A program made the translations under genes and the position numbers. From the sequence record OL780484.1: DNA of 64,000 nt; one strand, given 5' to 3'. Source of the stretch: Escherichia phage vB_EcoM-E33. Shown in pieces: positions 24,992 through 31,803 of this stretch. Every line of letters starts with the position of its first letter. Position 1 is the first letter of the stretch. The notes under the pieces are model-generated. The model made no database searches. It had not been told where the DNA came from and was given only the letters and a program-made list of their open reading frames with translations.

Positions 24992-25153
24992 ATGGCTAAG
25001 AAAGAAGTTAAAGTAGTTGACGGTACCTCTAAACGCGCTGGTTACAAGCGTGCGTCCAACAAGCGTATCAATCAGGTAGTTGATAAGCTTCAAGCTCGTG
25101 CTCGTGCAGTATTGCGTGCAGATGCTGCTTGCTTTGGTAAGCCTCAGGCATAA
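24992..25153 (+). CDS. Possible 53-aa basic protein
   Basis: ATG 24992 at the end of a ~150 nt leader, followed immediately by a terminator hairpin; below ORF-track cutoff. Confidence 0.35.
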   Translation: MAKKEVKVVDGTSKRAGYKRASNKRINQVVDKLQARARAVLRADAACFGKPQA

Positions 25154-25158
25154 GTTAT

Positions 25159-25182
25159 GGGACTCTTCGGAGTCCCATTTTT
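25159..25182 (+). terminator. Intrinsic terminator
   Basis: GGGACTCttcgGAGTCCC followed by ATTTTTGTTT. Confidence 0.85.
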
Positions 25183-25205
25183 GTTTCTAAATCTTTAAAA
25201 AAAGG

Positions 25206-25234
25206 GTGTACATCTCCGGTAGGCATGATACTAT
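25206..25234 (+). promoter_or_regulatory. Early promoter cassette
   Basis: GTGTAC, 17 bp, TACTAT; GTACAT/ATGTAC inverted repeat flanks it. Confidence 0.7.
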
Positions 25235-25275
25235 AGACATGTACCAAATAATACTAAAACAAACCGGAGAATAAA

Positions 25276-25608
25276 ATGAAAACTGTAAATCTGAATGCAT
25301 CTGTTAAAGCTAAATGTTTCAACGGTGAATATCAAGAAACCATGTGGGTCCTGACTGCAGTTGAAGGTGATATCATCGAAGTTGAAACAACTGAAGGTAT
25401 GGGTACTGATTTTACATTCACCATCGAGCTTCACAACTTCTTTACAGGTTGGATTTATGAACTGAAAACTGTAATTACTGGTCGTATTGAAGAAAACAAA
25501 AATGGTGAATTCTATTATGTTAATGCCCGTACACGTGCTGAACGTCTGATTGCTCAGATGAAAAAAGTTGGTAAACTTGATATGAAAAATTGGAATGTTG
25601 TGAAATAA
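25276..25608 (+). CDS. Hypothetical early protein
   Basis: 110 aa, own early promoter and RBS GGAGA. Confidence 0.6.
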   Translation: MKTVNLNASVKAKCFNGEYQETMWVLTAVEGDIIEVETTEGMGTDFTFTIELHNFFTGWIYELKTVITGRIEENKNGEFYYVNARTRAERLIAQMKKVGKLDMKNWNVVK

Positions 25609-25611
25609 ATG

Positions 25612-25640
25612 TTTTACTTTGGTACAGGTTGTGTTATTAT
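25612..25640 (+). promoter_or_regulatory. Early promoter embedded in a stem-loop
   Basis: TTTTAC, 17 bp, TATTAT; perfect 9-bp inverted repeat GGTACAGGT (25621-25629) / ACCTGTACC (25644-25652). Confidence 0.65.
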
Positions 25641-25681
25641 AGACCTGTACCAAATAATACGAAAACAAACTGGAGAATAAA

Positions 25682-26047
25682 ATGAACTACATCAACTTCG
25701 AACGTAAATATGTTTCTAACGGTATCGCTGGTTCTTCTGAAGTTATTTGCCTGTGGAAACACAACAACGGCGCGGTGTGCGAAATCGAACAGTGCATGAC
25801 TCCTAACTACGTTTATATGCGCTTTGAAAATGGTATTACGGTTTCAATCACAATGGAAGGTTCTACTTTTAAAATCGCTTTAGATGATGATTTCCGTCAA
25901 CGTGATTTAGGTACCCATCCTTGCTGGAACGGTGTTAATCGTAAGCTTCTGGTTAAAACTTGGATTCGACACATCCTGAGCAACCGAGCTAAACCTGAAC
26001 ACCTGGAAGCAATCTTTGATGTAGTTCTGAACGAATTCGACATCTAA
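25682..26047 (+). CDS. Hypothetical early protein
   Basis: 121 aa, own early promoter and RBS GGAGA. Confidence 0.6.
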   Translation: MNYINFERKYVSNGIAGSSEVICLWKHNNGAVCEIEQCMTPNYVYMRFENGITVSITMEGSTFKIALDDDFRQRDLGTHPCWNGVNRKLLVKTWIRHILSNRAKPEHLEAIFDVVLNEFDI

Positions 26048-26057
26048 TCTTAAAAAT

Positions 26058-26073
26058 GGAGGCTTCGGCCTCC
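26058..26073 (+). terminator. Stem-loop (weak terminator or leader structure)
   Basis: GGAGGCttcgGCCTCC followed by TTTGAGG. Confidence 0.45.
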
Positions 26074-26088
26074 TTTGAGGAAAATATT

Positions 26089-26376
26089 ATGTTTATGACC
26101 ACTTATTTCGATACTCGTAAAAATTTCTGTGAAGTTGTTTTCTCTAAAGCAGGTAAAGACGTTCCTGCCGACAAACAACCTACTCGTGAATCTATTAAGG
26201 CCTATGCTGATGTTGTATGTCCAGTAGAATTCCGTACTGTTAATGGTCGTGATACCTTAGCAATCACTAAGCTCAACCGTGATATCAATATCGACCCTAG
26301 TGCCGCCCGTGAAGTCAACACCTCTGACATCTACGGCGGTAATGTTAAATCACACGGCTTTCAGATGAGGTTCTAA
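26089..26376 (+). CDS. Hypothetical protein
   Basis: ATG 26089 after hairpin 26058-26073, RBS GAGG; ORF-track start 26056 would include the hairpin. Confidence 0.5.
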   Translation: MFMTTYFDTRKNFCEVVFSKAGKDVPADKQPTRESIKAYADVVCPVEFRTVNGRDTLAITKLNRDINIDPSAAREVNTSDIYGGNVKSHGFQMRF

Positions 26377-26570
26377 TGCAACTATTTTTATCGCAAACAG
26401 TCCAGTTAAAAGGTGTAGGTATTCCTGGAATGATTTCAAAGGTTCTACCTGCTTTTAAATTAGGTAATGTTACTATTAAAGAAGCCTACACCGTCCTATG
26501 GGTCGATGGAACTGAAGATGTTCGCATGGGTGGTGAACTGTCTGTAATCAAATGTTTAAAGCGAGGATAA
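26376..26570 (+). CDS. Hypothetical small protein
   Basis: 64 aa, start overlaps previous stop. Confidence 0.45.
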   Translation: MQLFLSQTVQLKGVGIPGMISKVLPAFKLGNVTIKEAYTVLWVDGTEDVRMGGELSVIKCLKRG

Positions 26571-26571
26571 T

Positions 26572-26784
26572 ATGGTTAAGAAATTGATTCAGAAATTATT
26601 AGGTACGGAAATGGTCGAAGTGACTTATCGTGTGACTGATTTATCTCCTGTGCATCCGCAAGATGAACCATATACTAAAACAATTAAAATGCTGAAATCT
26701 GATGGCGGATTATCTATTGAAGACCGTCTACCTGGTTATGGTCATTGGGCTGATGTCGAAATTATAAGTGTCAAAGATGTCTGA
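26572..26784 (+). CDS. Hypothetical small protein
   Basis: 70 aa ORF with RBS AGGA. Confidence 0.5.
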   Translation: MVKKLIQKLLGTEMVEVTYRVTDLSPVHPQDEPYTKTIKMLKSDGGLSIEDRLPGYGHWADVEIISVKDV

Positions 26785-27235
26785 GTTAGAAATAAGAAGC
26801 AATTTTCCATGGCCATCGTGTGCATTAAGTAACTTTGCTAAATGGCCTTTCGTTATGGATGGTATCCAATTTGGAGGGCTCGAAGGATTCCTCCAAGGGT
26901 GTAAGGTGAGAAATCATGAACAACAAAAACGTATATTTGGGATGTCCGGTCTGGCCGCACAACAAACTGGAAGAGCTTATGCAAGAGCTGCGGACCGTGG
27001 GACGCTTTTCTGGCTTGGAATTCCCTTTTCAAGATACTCTACATCATGGAAAGAGTTGTATACAAATGCATATTTTGAAGCAGCGCTCCAAAACAAAGGA
27101 TTCCGCGACGCATTACAAGCTACAAAGGGCAAAGTTTTAAAGCATTCGATGGCGAGCCACCTTACAGAATGTGATACAATACTAACTGAAAAAGAGTTTA
27201 TCGACATCCTAAACAAATTGAGAGATTTATTATGA
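26777..27235 (+). CDS. NADAR-like (YbiA/DUF1768-like) protein
   Basis: LSNFAKWPFVMDGIQFGGLEGFLQGCK resembles the N-terminal signature I recall for E. coli YbiA (FSNFAAWPIKVDGKTWPTSEHYFQAQKF); start ATG 26777 or GTG 26768. Confidence 0.6.
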   Translation: MSELEIRSNFPWPSCALSNFAKWPFVMDGIQFGGLEGFLQGCKVRNHEQQKRIFGMSGLAAQQTGRAYARAADRGTLFWLGIPFSRYSTSWKELYTNAYFEAALQNKGFRDALQATKGKVLKHSMASHLTECDTILTEKEFIDILNKLRDLL

Positions 27236-27870
27236 AACCAGTTATCTTAACAGATATCGATGGAGTATGTTTAAGTTGGCAGTCCGGCTTGCCTTATTTC
27301 GCACAGAAATATAATTTGCCTTTAGAACATATTTTGAATATGATTCAGGACGAACGTTTCTTATCTCCTGGTGAGCTGTTTAATTGTGATAATGAATTAG
27401 GCGCTCGTTTAATCGAGAAGTACAATCAGTCAGATTTTATTCGTTATCTGTCTCCTTACATGGACGCATTAAAACATATCAACAAGCTCAAAAAAGACTT
27501 CGATTTTGTAGCCGTGACTGCGCTAGGCGACTCAATTGATGCACTGCTGAATAGACAATTCAATTTGAATGCTTTGTTCCCTGGCGCATTCAAGGAGATT
27601 CTGATGTGTGGTCATTCAGAATCAAAAGAAGACCTCTTCATAAGAGCTAAAAATACGTACGGTAAACGTATTAAGTTTTATGTTGATGATTTGGCTCACC
27701 ACTGTGATGCCGCATCTAATGTTCTCATGGATATCCAAGTTTATTGGTTGGCTCGTGGTGAACGTGACTTTAAACCTAATTTGGCCGTAAAGGTTAATTC
27801 ATGGGACGATATCGCAGCAATCGAATCCCTTCGTAATAATGCCGCAGTTGAATGGATTGCTCGAGGTTAA
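27232..27870 (+). CDS. HAD-superfamily hydrolase-like protein (possible nucleotidase/phosphatase)
   Basis: 212 aa; N-terminal ILTDIDGV (HAD motif I) and later YVDD; ATGA overlap with the NADAR-like gene. Confidence 0.6.
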   Translation: MKPVILTDIDGVCLSWQSGLPYFAQKYNLPLEHILNMIQDERFLSPGELFNCDNELGARLIEKYNQSDFIRYLSPYMDALKHINKLKKDFDFVAVTALGDSIDALLNRQFNLNALFPGAFKEILMCGHSESKEDLFIRAKNTYGKRIKFYVDDLAHHCDAASNVLMDIQVYWLARGERDFKPNLAVKVNSWDDIAAIESLRNNAAVEWIARG

Positions 27871-27871
27871 T

Positions 27872-28021
27872 ATGTTTGTAGTTCATACAATTTCAGACTA
27901 TGGTCCTACCACTACAATGGATTATGGTCATGTAAACCAGTTTATTCGTCATGTGAATCATGATTACTCATTTGATGTAAATCCGGCTAAAGACCATCCT
28001 GTTTGGCGCGAATGCGTCTAA
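27872..28021 (+). CDS. Hypothetical small protein
   Basis: ATG 27872 directly after the HAD stop, RBS GAGG; ORF-track start 27839 is an overlapping extension. Confidence 0.35.
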   Translation: MFVVHTISDYGPTTTMDYGHVNQFIRHVNHDYSFDVNPAKDHPVWRECV

Positions 28022-28109
28022 CAGGGATTCATTTATGTCCACTTTATGTCCAAGTTCAAATCTGATGGGCGAATGAGATTTGTGTTCTCTTATCATAAGC
28101 GATTAGACT

Positions 28110-28135
28110 TGCTTTTGGCTGATGTGGCTTATAAT
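28110..28135 (+). promoter_or_regulatory. Putative middle promoter for DNA ligase
   Basis: TGCTT, 15 bp, TATAAT. Confidence 0.4.
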
Positions 28136-28160
28136 AGAATCCATGACTAATGAGGTGATT

Positions 28161-29687
28161 ATGATTTTAGATATTTTAAACGAAATTGCTGCTATTGATT
28201 CTACTAAAGCTAAAGAAGCCATTATTGCTCGTGAAAAGGACAATGAGCTTCTGAAACGTGTTTATCGTATGGCTTATACCCGTCGTCTGAACTACGGTAT
28301 TAAAAAGTGGCCAGAACCTGGATTTACATCTCAATCCTTTGGTATGATTACTCTTGAAGACCTTCTTGATTTCGCTGAATTCACATTAGCCACACGTAAG
28401 ATTACGGGTAATGCGGCTATTGAAGAACTGGCTCAAATCATTGCTGATGCCAAGGCCCCGGATGCCGAGGTATTACGTCGTGTAATGATGCGCGACCTTG
28501 AATGTGGTGCATCGATTTCTATTGCTAACAAGGTTTGGAAAGGTTTAATCCCTGAACAACCGCAGATGTTGGCGAGTTCTTATGATGAAGCTTTGATTAA
28601 GAAAAATATTAAATGGCCAGCGTTTGCTCAATTAAAAGCTGATGGTGCTCGTTGTTTTGCCGAAGTTCGTAACGATGGTGTGACATTCCTTACTCGTGGT
28701 GGTAACGAATATCAAGGGCTTAATCTTTTGGCGGCTGAATTAATGGCCATGACCGAAGAAGCTCGACAACGCCATCCTAATGGCGTTATGATTGATGGCG
28801 AATTAGTTTACCATACTCCTAAGGTAGAACCTAAAGCATCTAATGATTTGTTTAGTATGTTTGACGAGGAACTTCCTGAATTAAGTAAGGCTAAGGAATT
28901 CCAAACTGCCGCCGATCGTTCTACGTCAAATGGATTGGCTAATAAGGCTCTTCAAGGAACTATTTCGGCTACTGAAGCCGCTGGTATGGTATTACAGGCA
29001 TGGGATTATGTCCCACTGGATGTCGTGTATTCTGAAGGCAAAATTAAAGGCGATAAGTATGATGTACGCTTTACAGCCTTAGAACTTATGGTGGCTCATA
29101 ATGTCGTATTGCATGGTACAACGCGGGTTGAAGCTATCGAAAACCAGTGGGTTAATAATCTTGAAGAAGCTAAAGTCGTTTATAAGAAATATGTCGACCA
29201 GGGCCTGGAAGGTATTATCCTTAAGAACATGGACTCCTACTGGGAAAACCGCCGTTCTAAGAATCTTATCAAGTTCAAAGAAGTAATCGATATTGCTTTA
29301 GAAGTGGTGGGTTATTATGAACACTCGAAGGACCCTAACAAGCTAGGTGGTGTCGAGTTGGTATCACGTTGTCGTCGAATTACAAGCGACTGTGGTTCAG
29401 GCTTTAAAGATACCACCCATAAGAAAGATAAATCAGGTAAAAAAGTATTGATTCCATTGGAAGACCGTCCTGATTTAGACCGTGAACTTCTTATGAAACA
29501 AGCTCGTGAAGGTAAATTGATTGGCCGTATTGCCGACTGTGAATGTAATGGTTGGGTTCATTCTAAAGGACGTACCGATACTGTAGGTATTTTCCTTCCA
29601 ATTATTAAAGGTTGGCGTTTCGATAAAACAGAAGCTGATACATTTGAAGATGTATTCGGGTCGTGGGACCAAACAGGACTTAATTAA
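28161..29687 (+). CDS. 30: ATP-dependent DNA ligase (gene 30)
   Basis: Start at ATG 28161 (MILDILNEIAAID..., RBS GAGG); KADGAR adenylation motif; matches recalled T4 DNA ligase. Confidence 0.93.
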   Translation: MILDILNEIAAIDSTKAKEAIIAREKDNELLKRVYRMAYTRRLNYGIKKWPEPGFTSQSFGMITLEDLLDFAEFTLATRKITGNAAIEELAQIIADAKAPDAEVLRRVMMRDLECGASISIANKVWKGLIPEQPQMLASSYDEALIKKNIKWPAFAQLKADGARCFAEVRNDGVTFLTRGGNEYQGLNLLAAELMAMTEEARQRHPNGVMIDGELVYHTPKVEPKASNDLFSMFDEELPELSKAKEFQTAADRSTSNGLANKALQGTISATEAAGMVLQAWDYVPLDVVYSEGKIKGDKYDVRFTALELMVAHNVVLHGTTRVEAIENQWVNNLEEAKVVYKKYVDQGLEGIILKNMDSYWENRRSKNLIKFKEVIDIALEVVGYYEHSKDPNKLGGVELVSRCRRITSDCGSGFKDTTHKKDKSGKKVLIPLEDRPDLDRELLMKQAREGKLIGRIADCECNGWVHSKGRTDTVGIFLPIIKGWRFDKTEADTFEDVFGSWDQTGLN

Positions 29688-29857
29688 TGAAAGTTTATTT
29701 AGAAACAATTGTTATATCAAATACAAATATTACGGCAGTCTCTCAAATCATCCTTGATTTTGAGGACGAAATAGCTTTTGCTGATTTTAAAGATACCTTC
29801 GATGGCTATGAAAAAGGCCCTACATTCGAAGTATATCGTACACTGTTACCACTTTAA
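29687..29857 (+). CDS. Possible 56-aa protein
   Basis: ATG overlaps ligase stop (TAATG); ends just before a hairpin; below ORF-track cutoff. Confidence 0.35.
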   Translation: MKVYLETIVISNTNITAVSQIILDFEDEIAFADFKDTFDGYEKGPTFEVYRTLLPL

Positions 29858-29874
29858 GGCCTTCGGGCCTTTTC
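29857..29874 (+). terminator. Terminator-like hairpin upstream of alt
   Basis: AGGCCttcgGGCCT followed by TTTTCT. Confidence 0.6.
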
Positions 29875-29877
29875 TGG

Positions 29878-29885
29878 CATAAATA
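29878..29885 (+). promoter_or_regulatory. Late promoter-like motif upstream of the alt genes
   Basis: CATAAATA 23 nt upstream of the alt paralog 1 ATG. Confidence 0.45.
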
Positions 29886-29907
29886 AGGTTATTAAAGAGG
29901 AATTATT

Positions 29908-31803
29908 ATGTCCGAACAATTGAATGAGGTATTTGATGGTGATATAAATTTATCTGCTGTCAATTTAAACCCTAAACTTAAAGTCCCACAGATTTGGAAT
30001 ATAAAGGCTGAAGGTAACGAGAACCTTGTTGCCCGCATGGTTTCATATACTTCCGAAGGCGATGTAATTCGTCAGGTTAAGCCTGGTGACAAGTATGTTC
30101 ATGTCGTTTTAATGAGCCTATCGGCTAAAGGTTCTCCTGCCGAACTCAAAGGTGGATTAGGTACCAATCCTATTTCCGCTATTCGTTCTATATTTGATAT
30201 CGTCTATGAACAGGTCAAGGCCCTTCGTATGGACGCTGTTATGTTCCGTTTTCCTACCAAGAAAATGAAAGGGCAGGAAAAAGCTATACAGAGGGTATTG
30301 GCTAAATTAATAGCCTCTAGAGCAGGCGGACAGTTTAAAGTTCTTGATGCCTTGTATCAATTCACCGGTAAGCATTCGTATGTTTTTATCTATCGTAAAA
30401 ATAAAAATATAGAATCTATAAATGGTATTCCTAATATTAATTTAGAATTGTATACTAAAGTCGAATCTGAAGTCGGTGACGTGTATGTTTCAAAGAAAAC
30501 AGGCGAAGATGTTACCAAACTAGAAGCTATAGCTAAGTCCATAGACGAAATAGAAAAATCACGTTCTGATAAAACTGTTATAACCAAAACAAAGGTTTCT
30601 AAACGTGCTGCTATCAATGCTTTATATCCTACAGCAGAGCCTACAGGATTGAGTAAATTTTCGGCAGAGCACAAAAAAGCTTATGCAGATTATTCTGCTA
30701 CTAGTTCCGTTCATTCTTCTGAAGATTCTAAAGAAAGCCAAATAGCTTTAGCCAGTAATAAAATATTAAAAGACACCTCTAAAGAAATGGCAGAATATTT
30801 GGATTATATTTTTAACGGTGTTAATCCATCATTTGAAGTAGACGAGCGCAAACTTAAACTAATTGCTGATATAAAGTTTGCTTTAGAGGCATCAGATTCT
30901 TTAGATAAATCTAATAGTGTCATAGAGGCTTTAAAATCAGGTAAATCTCATGTAGACATTCTTAGACTAGTCGCTGCGGCCCTTTTAGATGATTCAGTTA
31001 AAGGTACTTGGGCTAGAGAATCTAAAATCAAGGAAGTAATAAAATCCTTAGTAGCAGTTTATACAAAATCTATCCAACCATTGTTTAAGATATCTGATAA
31101 TCCTAATTTATCCAAACCTCAAGAAGAGGCAGTCAAAAAGTATACTCGTGGCGGCTACAACCATATAAACAACTTTTTGCTAGGTAAAACAGATACCACC
31201 GATGAAATGATAAAAATGATGGGTGAGTTGGATTCTACATTTGAAAATGGTACAAAACTTCCTAAAGGAACCATAGTGTATCGTTCTCAGATAATGCCTA
31301 CCGAAATGGCTTTGAATTCTATAAAACATAAGGTGATGTATCTTCCTATTTTTGCATCAACTTCATTGGCTCCTAATATTTTCGGTGAAATGGGTCATGC
31401 TCAATCCAACTTAGACCCTGAAGCTCTTTCTAGCGATATAGATAGTAATCTTGAAGACACCATTAAAAGTGCGACCGGAAGTGCTAGAGATACCATTAAG
31501 CTAGGGTTAATTATTAAAGGTGCTGATAAAATTAAGGTTATTGTGCCCGGTGACTTGGCTAATTGGTCTACAGAAACCGAAGTAATTCTTCCTCGTGGGG
31601 TTATGCTTAAGATTAATAAAGTATACGGTGCTTCCAAGGGACCTATGGGTTCAATTGGTAAATATGTTTTAGTGGAATGTGAAGTTGTAGCTACCGAGCA
31701 AATCACAGAGGAAAATTCATATAGCACCGGATTCTCGTTTGGAAATTATGATAGAATTATGTATGAAGATTCTATGGAAAAATTAGCAAATTTATTTAAA
31801 TAG
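29908..31803 (+). CDS. alt: Alt-like ADP-ribosyltransferase, paralog 1
   Basis: 631 aa; N-terminal region resembles recalled T4 Alt; C-terminal R/S-T-S/E-x-E motifs (VYRSQ, FASTSL, TETEVILPRG). Confidence 0.85.
   Translation: MSEQLNEVFDGDINLSAVNLNPKLKVPQIWNIKAEGNENLVARMVSYTSEGDVIRQVKPGDKYVHVVLMSLSAKGSPAELKGGLGTNPISAIRSIFDIVYEQVKALRMDAVMFRFPTKKMKGQEKAIQRVLAKLIASRAGGQFKVLDALYQFTGKHSYVFIYRKNKNIESINGIPNINLELYTKVESEVGDVYVSKKTGEDVTKLEAIAKSIDEIEKSRSDKTVITKTKVSKRAAINALYPTAEPTGLSKFSAEHKKAYADYSATSSVHSSEDSKESQIALASNKILKDTSKEMAEYLDYIFNGVNPSFEVDERKLKLIADIKFALEASDSLDKSNSVIEALKSGKSHVDILRLVAAALLDDSVKGTWARESKIKEVIKSLVAVYTKSIQPLFKISDNPNLSKPQEEAVKKYTRGGYNHINNFLLGKTDTTDEMIKMMGELDSTFENGTKLPKGTIVYRSQIMPTEMALNSIKHKVMYLPIFASTSLAPNIFGEMGHAQSNLDPEALSSDIDSNLEDTIKSATGSARDTIKLGLIIKGADKIKVIVPGDLANWSTETEVILPRGVMLKINKVYGASKGPMGSIGKYVLVECEVVATEQITEENSYSTGFSFGNYDRIMYEDSMEKLANLFK

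What the first reader, a model, noticed from the sequence alone, without database searches (positions are those of the whole stretch)
26777..27870. NADAR-like and HAD-like gene pair immediately upstream of DNA ligase
ORF 26777-27235 carries LSNFAKWPFVMDGIQFGGLEGFLQGCK, closely resembling the N-terminal signature I recall for E. coli YbiA / NADAR (DUF1768) proteins. Some NADAR proteins are reported to remove ADP-ribose from guanine bases modified by DarT-type toxins. The next gene, translationally coupled by an ATGA overlap, has a HAD motif I (ILTDIDGV) and a later DD motif, consistent with a phosphatase or nucleotidase. A coupled ADP-ribose-removing enzyme plus phosphatase in an early region of a phage that itself injects ADP-ribosyltransferases could be an anti-defence or ADP-ribose recycling module.
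Basis: partly seen in the sequence, partly recalled or inferred. Interest (0 to 1): 0.6.

Follow-up and report, generated by a model that had tools for sequence, protein, structure and literature searches.

The report
Known anti-DarT NADAR plus HAD phosphatase
These are the T4-family genes 30.3 and 30.2: the first is AdfN, an already characterised enzyme that strips ADP-ribose off phage DNA to defeat the bacterial DarTG1 defence. The second is a conserved phosphatase of unknown substrate that published T4 data show is not needed for that job.

Summary
Window 26777-27235 encodes a 152-aa protein and 27232-27870 a 212-aa protein, joined by an ATGA overlap, upstream of DNA ligase and Alt. The window is a Dhakavirus, a T-even phage.

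Gene 1 is the ortholog of T4 gp30.3 (Pfam PF08010, E 3.6e-64; 86% identical over the full length). T4 gp30.3 was published as AdfN, a NADAR ADP-ribosylglycohydrolase that removes DarT1's guanine-ADP-ribose from phage DNA. E36, K43, the phage-type H123 and the C-terminal helix are all intact. The model matches only the three solved NADAR structures.

Gene 2 is the gp30.2 ortholog, a HAD-fold enzyme with a helical cap. All four catalytic motifs are conserved (DxD 8-10, T96, K132, DD 152-153). It is closest to 5'(3')-deoxyribonucleotidases (Pfam NT5C) but scores below that family's threshold, so its substrate is unknown.

The proposed coupled module is not supported. Adjacency is confined to T-even relatives, and in other T4-like genomes the genes lie about 55-60 kb apart. 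Short overlaps are the norm along this gene string. In a published T4 transposon screen under DarTG1, 30.3 insertions are lost (log2FC -7.25) while 30.2 insertions are neutral (-0.12). The finding is correct but already known.

The parts
26777..27235 (+). adfN (T4 gene 30.3 ortholog): 152-aa NADAR-family DNA ADP-ribosylglycohydrolase, full length
   Evidence: PF08010, E 3.6e-64. 86% identical to T4 gp30.3 over 152/152 aa. AF2 pLDDT 94. Foldseek hits only YbiA 2b3w, G. lovleyi NADAR 8bat and PnNADAR 8bau. hhalign against YbiA gives probability 91%.
26825..26836 (+). LSNF motif (L17-F20) of the NADAR N-terminal signature
   Evidence: Invariant in the 40-sequence family alignment A5. Aligns to FSNF of YbiA.
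26882..26905 (+). Catalytic helix EGFLQGCK: E36 (26882-26884) and K43 (26903-26905)
   Evidence: Both are invariant in A5 and identical in T4. The E36A and K43A mutants of T4 AdfN lose most activity (PMC11825919).
27143..27145 (+). H123, the last-strand charged residue that is His in the phage gp30.3 subfamily of NADARs
   Evidence: Invariant in A5. The subfamily rule is stated in PMC11125620.
27188..27232 (+). C-terminal helix (last ~15 residues) that is missing in the inactive RB69 allele; intact here
   Evidence: Helix 138-151 in the model. Aligns end-to-end with T4. RB69 truncation data in PMC11825919.
27232..27870 (+). T4 gene 30.2 ortholog: 212-aa HAD-superfamily phosphatase with a helical C1 cap; lacks the ~80-aa C-terminal tail of T4 gp30.2
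27253..27267 (+). HAD motif I, DIDGV: D8 nucleophile and D10 general acid/base
   Evidence: D8, D10 and G11 are invariant in A4 (40 sequences). D8 and D10 are also invariant in the distant set A6.
27517..27519 (+). HAD motif II Thr (T96)
   Evidence: Conserved in 90% or more of sequences in A4, and lies at the end of strand 91-97.
27625..27627 (+). HAD motif III Lys (K132)
   Evidence: Invariant in A4 and A6.
27685..27690 (+). HAD motif IV, DD (D152 D153), Mg2+ ligands
   Evidence: Invariant in A4, at the end of strand 147-152.
27232..27235 (+). ATGA start/stop overlap between adfN and 30.2
   Evidence: Read directly from the sequence. The same overlap occurs in T4.
26777..26784 (+). 8-nt overlap (ATGTCTGA) between the upstream gene 30.4 (26572-26784) and adfN
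   Evidence: In the T4 transposon screen, 30.4 insertions are mildly depleted under DarTG1 (log2FC -1.79, adjP 0.014), consistent with polarity on 30.3.

Best explanation
Two neighbouring but functionally separable early genes of a T-even (Dhakavirus) phage.

(1) 26777-27235 is adfN (= T4 30.3). It encodes an orphan NADAR ADP-ribosylglycohydrolase. During infection it cleaves the N-glycosidic bond between ADP-ribose and guanine that the host toxin DarT1 places on phage DNA. This releases ADP-ribose, restores a replicable template and so neutralises the DarTG1 defence. The catalytic residues are E36 and K43 on the EGFLQxxK helix and H123 on the last strand, and the C-terminal helix is needed for full activity. 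The sequence, fold and residues are shown here. The chemistry and phenotype are shown for the 86%-identical T4 protein and are inferred for this allele.

(2) 27232-27870 is the 30.2 ortholog. I infer that it is a Mg2+-dependent HAD phosphomonoesterase. In the standard HAD mechanism, D8 forms the aspartyl-phosphate intermediate, D10 acts as acid/base, T96 and K132 hold the phosphate, and D152/D153 hold Mg2+. A four-helix aromatic-rich cap (about residues 14-90) would close over a small substrate. The most likely substrate is a (deoxy)nucleoside monophosphate, as in the NT5C 5'(3')-deoxyribonucleotidases, but it is not established.

The two genes share a polycistronic early transcript and an ATGA junction because of T-even gene packing, not because they form an obligatory enzyme pair.
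For: AdfN identity:
- PF08010 scores E 3.6e-64, and the protein is 86% identical to T4 gp30.3 with no truncation.
- E36, K43 and H123 are invariant in 40 homologs.
- The AF2 model has pLDDT 94. Its only real PDB matches are YbiA, G. lovleyi DarG1-type NADAR and PnNADAR.
- hhalign against YbiA gives 91% probability, E 1e-6, and 6 of 40 members hit Pfam NADAR.

AdfN function in T4:
- PMC11825919 reports the genetics, the E36A/K43A mutants and in vitro de-ADP-ribosylation of DNA.
- PMC11125620 reports in vitro activity of T4 gp30.3.
- HIDEN-SEQ gives 30.3 log2FC -7.25, adjP 0, under DarTG1.

gp30.2:
- All four HAD motifs are invariant or nearly so.
- The best PDB sequence hit is cdN 2jao, aligning DvDGvlvkWqsgL to NMDGVLADFESGL.
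- NT5C is the commonest Pfam hit among distant relatives (6 of 36). One of them (P0359) scores 28.6 bits, above the 24.8-bit cut-off.

Independence of the two genes:
- In T4, 30.2 is non-essential (72 of 72 sites hit).
- Under DarTG1, 30.2 insertions are neutral (log2FC -0.12, p 0.61, 71 sites).
- Only 19 of 80 AdfN loci have a gp30.2 relative within 6 kb. 15 of 28 T4-like gp30.2 loci and 0 of about 50 distant ones have AdfN within 6 kb.
- The same IMG/VR genomes carry both genes about 55-60 kb apart.
- Short overlaps or 1-nt gaps are general in this string.
Against: No biochemical or genetic test was done on this particular allele or phage. The window's gp30.2 scores below the curated Pfam cut-off for NT5C (13.4 against 24.8 bits). 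It has no significant hit to any generic HAD Pfam model, so the family assignment rests on motifs, structure prediction and bridging relatives. Structural neighbours of similar score include dehalogenases, sugar phosphatases and pyrophosphatase, so the nucleotide substrate is a guess.

PMC11825919 reports that AdfN-T4 works fully only during T-even infection and suggests an unidentified T-even co-factor. gp30.2 was absent in exactly the settings where AdfN failed (uninfected E. coli, T5, Bas25). The co-factor idea is therefore excluded only by the transposon data from T4 on one DarTG1 system. I identified that supplementary table as the DarTG1 one from its position in the file and from the 30.3 value, not from a header.
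Confidence: 0.8

Rival explanations
1. AdfN and gp30.2 form a translationally coupled two-enzyme anti-defence or ADP-ribose-recycling module, and gp30.2 processes the product of AdfN or is the 'additional T-even protein' that AdfN needs.
For: The ATGA overlap is conserved between this phage and T4. The genes directly abut in T-even relatives (14 of 80 AdfN loci). Both genes occur in nearly the same set of about 1450-1500 phage genomes. AdfN-T4 fails outside T-even infection, where gp30.2 is absent.
Against: In the T4 transposon library on DarTG1, 30.2 gives log2FC -0.12, adjP 1 over 71 sites, against -7.25 for 30.3. The adjacency is lost in most T4-like lineages, where the genes sit about 55-60 kb apart in the same genomes. 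The gp30.2 family extends to distant T4-like marine contigs with no AdfN within 6 kb. Free ADP-ribose has no phosphomonoester for a HAD phosphatase to remove. Co-occurrence is uninformative because both genes are near-core in Straboviridae.
Confidence: 0.06
2. gp30.2 is a polynucleotide 3'-phosphatase (end-healing enzyme) that prepares nicks for the adjacent DNA ligase, like the HAD domain of T4 Pnkp.
Against: The model has a large helical C1 cap between motifs I and II (helices 16-86). From general knowledge of HAD enzymes, this type of cap encloses small substrates, whereas Pnkp-type domains are capless. The Pnkp matches align only about 125-129 residues, against 160-180 for capped enzymes. 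T4-like phages already encode PseT. In distant relatives the gene is not near a ligase.
Confidence: 0.06
3. gp30.2 is a non-phosphatase HAD enzyme, such as a haloacid dehalogenase or an epoxide/azetidine hydrolase.
Against: It has the phosphatase-type DxD motif, with Asp at nucleophile+2, and a DD motif IV for Mg2+. Both are invariant. From established HAD enzymology, dehalogenases lack these and are metal independent. No plausible halogenated substrate exists in a phage infection.
Confidence: 0.02
4. AdfN's main role is not DNA repair. Instead it hydrolyses soluble ADP-ribose-derived immune signals, or reverses ADP-ribosylation made by the phage's own Alt/ModA/ModB.
For: Iyer et al. [quoted passage not shown] Alt lies 2.7 kb downstream here.
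Against: Direct experiments on the T4 ortholog show removal of ADP-ribose from DarT1-modified DNA and a DarTG1-specific phenotype. 30.3 is non-essential without DarTG1. An additional substrate is not excluded.
Confidence: 0.08

Closest known systems
T4 AdfN (gp30.3), anti-DarT factor NADAR; Johannesman et al., Nat Commun 2025 (PMC11825919)
   Same: It is the ortholog: 86% identity over all 152 residues, with the same E36, K43, H123 and C-terminal helix. It holds the same position between 30.4 and 30.2, with the same ATGA and 8-nt overlaps.
   Different: There are 21 substitutions, none at invariant family positions. Activity and DarTG1 phenotype have not been measured for this Dhakavirus allele.
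DarG1-type NADAR antitoxins (G. lovleyi NADAR 8bat) and E. coli YbiA (2b3w), NADAR superfamily PF08719
   Same: Same fold (Foldseek TM 0.59-0.67) and the same SNF...E-x3-Q-x2-K signature.
   Different: The gene is an orphan with no adjacent DarT toxin. The last-strand catalytic residue is His rather than Asp (DarT-linked) or Glu (YbiA). The sequence does not reach the Pfam NADAR threshold on its own. T4 AdfN cannot replace DarG1 in uninfected cells.
5'(3')-deoxyribonucleotidases cdN/mdN and bacterial homologs (Pfam NT5C, PF06941; PDB 2jao, 6g2n, 4mum, 3bwv)
   Different: The window protein scores 13.4 bits against the 24.8-bit cut-off, and sequence identity is 14-18%. Other HAD IA enzymes score equally well structurally. 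No substrate data exist.
T4 gp30.2 (NP_049815), hypothetical protein; PHROG 420
   Same: It is the ortholog: 72% identity over the HAD domain and the same genomic position.
   Different: T4 has an extra C-terminal tail of about 80 aa, rich in P, N and Y, that is absent here (212 aa against 278 aa). Tail length varies widely in the family.

Membership tests
Phage gp30.3 / AdfN family (Pfam PF08010) | Profile match above the curated threshold | tested here: met
   215.1 bits against a cut-off of 36, E 3.6e-64, covering 2-138 of 138 profile positions.
Phage gp30.3 / AdfN family (Pfam PF08010) | Full-length protein with the C-terminal helix (its loss gives the inactive RB69 allele) | tested here: met
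   Aligns to T4 AdfN through the last residue. Helix 138-151 is predicted at high confidence.
Phage gp30.3 / AdfN family (Pfam PF08010) | Removes ADP-ribose from DarT1-modified DNA and confers DarTG1 resistance | not testable with these tools
   Shown only for the T4 ortholog (PMC11825919; HIDEN-SEQ).
NADAR superfamily (PF08719 / YbiA-like) | NADAR alpha+beta fold | tested here: met
   The only Foldseek PDB hits with probability of 0.98 or more are 2b3w, 8bat and 8bau.
NADAR superfamily (PF08719 / YbiA-like) | Catalytic Glu and Lys on the E-x3-Q-x2-K helix, plus a charged residue on the last strand | tested here: met
   E36, Q40, K43 and H123 are invariant in A5. His is the phage-subfamily variant.
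NADAR superfamily (PF08719 / YbiA-like) | Sequence-profile match to NADAR models | tested here: inconclusive
   The single sequence gives no PF08719 hit and TIGR02464 only at E 0.093. The family profile against YbiA gives hhalign probability 91%, E 1e-6. 6 of 40 members hit PF08719, best E 1.5e-7.
DarTG1 toxin-antitoxin operon | NADAR gene adjacent to a DarT ADP-ribosyltransferase toxin | tested here: not met
   The neighbours are 30.4 and 30.2. There are no PADLOC hits. The nearest ART is Alt, an RNA-polymerase-modifying type. This fits the published 'orphan antitoxin' description.
HAD superfamily | Four catalytic motifs: I DxD, II T/S, III K, IV DD | tested here: met
   D8/D10, T96, K132 and D152/D153 are invariant or conserved in 90% or more of 40 homologs. 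D8, D10 and K132 are invariant in distant relatives.
HAD superfamily | Rossmannoid core with a cap inserted after motif I (C1) | tested here: met
HAD superfamily | Match to a generic HAD Pfam model (PF00702 / PF13419) | tested here: not met
   There is no hit for the window protein even at E of 1. Only 4-5 of 36 distant relatives hit weakly.
NT5C 5'(3')-deoxyribonucleotidase family (PF06941) | Profile match above the curated threshold | tested here: not met
   13.4 bits against 24.8, E 0.074. The relative P0359 passes at 28.6 bits. I therefore describe the protein as NT5C-like and do not file it as a member.
NT5C 5'(3')-deoxyribonucleotidase family (PF06941) | Dephosphorylation of dNMPs | not testable with these tools
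   No biochemical data were found for gp30.2: zero papers mention 'gp30.2'.

The most novel reading that the evidence does not exclude
gp30.2 is a conditionally required helper of AdfN or a separate anti-defence enzyme. It might be needed against DarT1 variants or hosts other than the one screened. Alternatively it might be a nucleotidase that destroys a phosphorylated nucleotide or ADP-ribose-derived immune metabolite. Either role could explain why AdfN-T4 works fully only in T-even infections.
Probability: 0.05. Interest if true: 0.6.

Novelty: already known. Interest (0 to 1): 0.15.

Why it matters
The result mainly confirms existing knowledge. It shows that this Dhakavirus carries an intact allele of the published anti-DarTG1 factor AdfN, so the phage is predicted to resist DarTG1. 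This is useful for annotation and for host-range prediction. The only open biology is the substrate and role of gp30.2. It is a near-core, non-essential HAD phosphatase of T4-like phages that no paper in the searched library mentions by the name 'gp30.2'. The identity of the T-even factor that AdfN seems to need is also still open. The available data argue that gp30.2 is not that factor.

Tried and rejected
- Single-sequence searches of the PDB gave only marginal hits: YbiA at E 1.2 and cdN at E 0.25. Family profiles improved this only slightly, to E 0.02 and 0.057. Structure prediction and hhalign were needed.
- NCBIfam and PADLOC gave nothing significant.
- Rfam found no RNA family in 25000-30000. 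Minus-strand ORFs inside the two genes are short and have no support.
- I looked for fusions or neighbourhoods that would reveal the gp30.2 substrate. Long relatives (P0303, P0353, P0246, P0291) carry no informative extra Pfam domains. Two context look-ups were uninformative. Recurrent neighbours in distant viral loci are, on my reading of the representative sequences (not profile-tested), a PhoH-like ATPase, a clamp-loader-like protein, an RNase H-like protein and tail-fibre genes. This looks like T4-like synteny, not ADP-ribose metabolism.
- I rejected genome co-occurrence as evidence of coupling. Both genes are near-core in Straboviridae, so co-occurrence does not discriminate.
- I rejected the ATGA overlap as evidence of coupling, because overlaps and 1-nt gaps run through the whole 30.6-30.1 string.
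- Literature searches for gp30.2 returned nothing relevant.
- The promoter/terminator scan found no convincing terminator between 25200 and 29700, so a shared transcript is plausible but not shown.

Full report
**What is there.** The window is a T-even phage. Region 26000-29700 is 98.9% identical to Escherichia phage vB_EcoM_FB and 97% identical to phage Bp7. Bp7 belongs to the genus Dhakavirus, subfamily Tevenvirinae. On the + strand the gene order matches T4's 30.8-30.1, 30, alt.1, alt. The finding's two ORFs are real. ORF 1 runs 26777-27235 (152 aa). An upstream GTG at 26768 could also start it, but ATG 26777 matches the T4 start. ORF 2 runs 27232-27870 (212 aa). The two are joined by ATGA. 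DNA ligase follows at 28122/28161-29687, and an Alt-type ADP-ribosyltransferase lies at 29908-31803.

**Gene 1 is adfN.**
- It matches Pfam PF08010 (Phage_30_3) at E 3.6e-64.
- It is 86% identical to T4 gp30.3 over the full 152 residues.
- In a 40-sequence alignment reaching down to 36% identity, the invariant positions include L17-S-N-F20, E36, G37, F38, Q40, K43 and H123.
- The AlphaFold2 model is confident (pLDDT 94).
- Its only meaningful PDB neighbours are the three solved NADARs: E. coli YbiA (E 1.7e-4, TM 0.67), Geobacter lovleyi NADAR and Phytophthora NADAR bound to ADP-ribose.
- The family profile aligns to YbiA with hhalign probability 91%, E 1e-6.
- 6 of 40 members hit Pfam NADAR directly.

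**This gene is already characterised.**
- Johannesman et al. (Nat Commun 2025, PMC11825919) renamed T4 30.3 as adfN, 'anti-DarT factor NADAR'.
- They showed that it is necessary and sufficient for T-even resistance to DarTG1, and that E36A and K43A cripple it.
- They showed that the RB69 allele, which lacks the last 15 residues, is defective.
- They showed that the purified protein removes ADP-ribose from DarT1-modified DNA.
- Suskiewicz-group work (Toxins 2024, PMC11125620) reported in vitro guanine de-ADP-ribosylation by T4 gp30.3. It also noted that phage NADARs carry a His where YbiA has Glu and DarT-linked NADARs have Asp. That His is H123 here.
- A T4 transposon screen (HIDEN-SEQ, bioRxiv 10.1101/2025.11.20.689424) found 30.3 insertions lost under DarTG1.

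The window allele has every residue and the C-terminal helix that these studies identify as required. I therefore predict it is active, but this is inference from orthology.

**Gene 2 is the gp30.2 ortholog, a HAD phosphatase.**
- It matches PHROG 420 at E 1.5e-70.
- It is 72% identical to T4 gp30.2 across the first ~195 residues. T4 has an extra tail of about 80 aa that is absent here.
- Pfam gives only a sub-threshold NT5C hit (13.4 bits against 24.8).
- Across 40 homologs the four HAD motifs are invariant or nearly so: D8-x-D10-G11, T96, K132 and D152-D153. W16, S18, R108, N111 and R175 are also invariant.
- D8, D10, R108 and K132 stay invariant in relatives of 21-40% identity.
- The model (pLDDT 94, pTM 0.88) is a Rossmannoid core with a four-helix cap inserted after motif I.
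- The best PDB sequence hit for the family profile is mouse cdN. It aligns the extended motif I, DvDGvlvkWqsgL, with NMDGVLADFESGL.
- In the exhaustive representative search, 417 clusters match at E of 1e-3 or better. NT5C is the commonest Pfam family among distant members (6 of 36). One of them, P0359, passes the curated cut-off.

The Asp at nucleophile+2 and the DD motif mark a Mg2+-dependent phosphatase rather than a dehalogenase; this follows from established HAD enzymology. I therefore describe gp30.2 as an NT5C-like small-molecule phosphatase, most likely a nucleotidase. I do not file it in PF06941, and the substrate is unknown.

**Are the two genes a module?** Four lines of evidence say no.
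1. The ATGA overlap is not special. The string shows a 1-nt overlap (30.6/30.5), a 1-nt gap (30.5/30.4), an 8-nt overlap (30.4/30.3), the 4-nt overlap (30.3/30.2), a 1-nt gap (30.2/30.1) and a 1-nt overlap (30/alt.1).
2. The adjacency is lineage-specific.
   - Among 28 T4-like IMG/VR loci holding gp30.2, AdfN abuts it in about 7 and lies 0.3-1.2 kb upstream in 6. It is absent within 6 kb in 15.
   - None of about 50 distant gp30.2 loci has AdfN nearby.
   - Conversely, only 19 of 80 AdfN loci have gp30.2 within 6 kb.
   - Several complete genomes carry both genes about 55-60 kb apart. One example is UViG_2706796756, with gp30.2 near 131 kb and AdfN near 72 kb.
3. Both genes occur in about 1450-1500 phage records with nearly identical host distributions. 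That reflects near-core status in Straboviridae, not coupling.
4. The HIDEN-SEQ supplementary table gives the clearest evidence.
   - Under DarTG1, gene-30.3 has log2FC -7.25 (adjP 0).
   - Gene-30.2 has log2FC -0.12 (p 0.61, adjP 1, 71 sites), and gene-30.1 has -0.01.
   - Gene-30.4 has -1.79 (adjP 0.014), which is plausibly a polar effect on 30.3.
   - 30.2 is also non-essential on K-12 (72 of 72 sites hit).
   - I identified the table as the DarTG1 comparison from its position in the file and from the 30.3 value, which matches the main text.

Johannesman et al. note that AdfN-T4 works fully only in T-even infections and may need another T-even protein. gp30.2 would be the obvious positional candidate, but the transposon data argue against it for T4.

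**Verdict.** The coupled-module idea is not supported. The novelty class is 'already known' and interest is low. What remains open is the substrate of gp30.2. No paper in the searched library mentions 'gp30.2' by that name.

Noticed in passing
window 27872-28160 (stop at 28019-28021): Gene 30.1 (DUF3045) carries an in-frame TAA where T4 and the closest relatives (L085, L086, L090, otherwise identical here) have Glu: CVEQGFIY becomes CV*QGFIY. The 92-aa protein is cut to 49 aa. This appears to be a strain-specific nonsense allele.
   Followed up: partly
window 26916-27140 (+), inside adfN in the +1 frame: This 74-codon ORF is homologous to T4's annotated internal gene 30.3' (61% identity, against 86% in the adfN frame). 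It stays open in most close T-even relatives. It is shortened in one of them (L002) and absent from more distant AdfN genes, so it is probably not a conserved coding frame.
   Followed up: partly
window 25236-25281 and 25642-25687: The upstream regions of the 30.8 and 30.7 homologs share a direct repeat of about 46 nt, TATAGAC(A/C)TGTACCAAATAATAC(T/G)AAAACAAAC(C/T)GGAGAATAAAATGAA. It spans a -10-like element, the leader, the Shine-Dalgarno sequence and the start codon. It looks like a duplicated early promoter and leader cassette.
   Followed up: no
window 25157-25178: A strong terminator-like hairpin (9-bp stem, GC-rich, followed by a T-run) sits right after the small ORF 24992-25153. It probably marks the upstream end of the transcription unit that contains adfN and 30.2.
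   Followed up: no
window 26572-26784 / T4 gene 30.4: In the published T4 transposon data, 30.4 insertions are mildly depleted under DarTG1 (log2FC -1.79, adjP 0.014). 30.4 overlaps the adfN start by 8 nt here and in T4, which suggests polarity or translational coupling of adfN to 30.4 rather than to 30.2.
   Followed up: partly
proteins P0124-P0126, P0133, P0135, P0139: Many close relatives carry shortened or fused AdfN products. One example is a 91-aa fragment in phage UGJNEcP4, whose gp30.2 is 99% identical to the window's. AdfN may be broken repeatedly in nature, as in RB69, although some cases could be annotation or assembly artefacts.
   Followed up: no
loci L030-L081: In distant gp30.2-family loci from T4-like environmental contigs, the commonest neighbour (20 loci) is a protein I read as a PhoH-like ATPase. 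Proteins I read as clamp-loader-like and RNase H-like also recur. I identified these by eye from the representative sequences, not by a profile search.
   Followed up: partly
T4 L001:3478-4311 versus window 27232-27870: The C-terminal tail of gp30.2 is highly variable across the family, from 0 to about 140 residues. It is often rich in P, N and Y and looks disordered. This phage has the short form, which ends in a single helix.
   Followed up: no
proteins P0210, P0221: PF08010-type (phage-like) NADARs also occur on long bacterial contigs, including a 995-kb Bacteroides sp. contig and a 424-kb contig. These could be prophages or cellular homologs.
   Followed up: no
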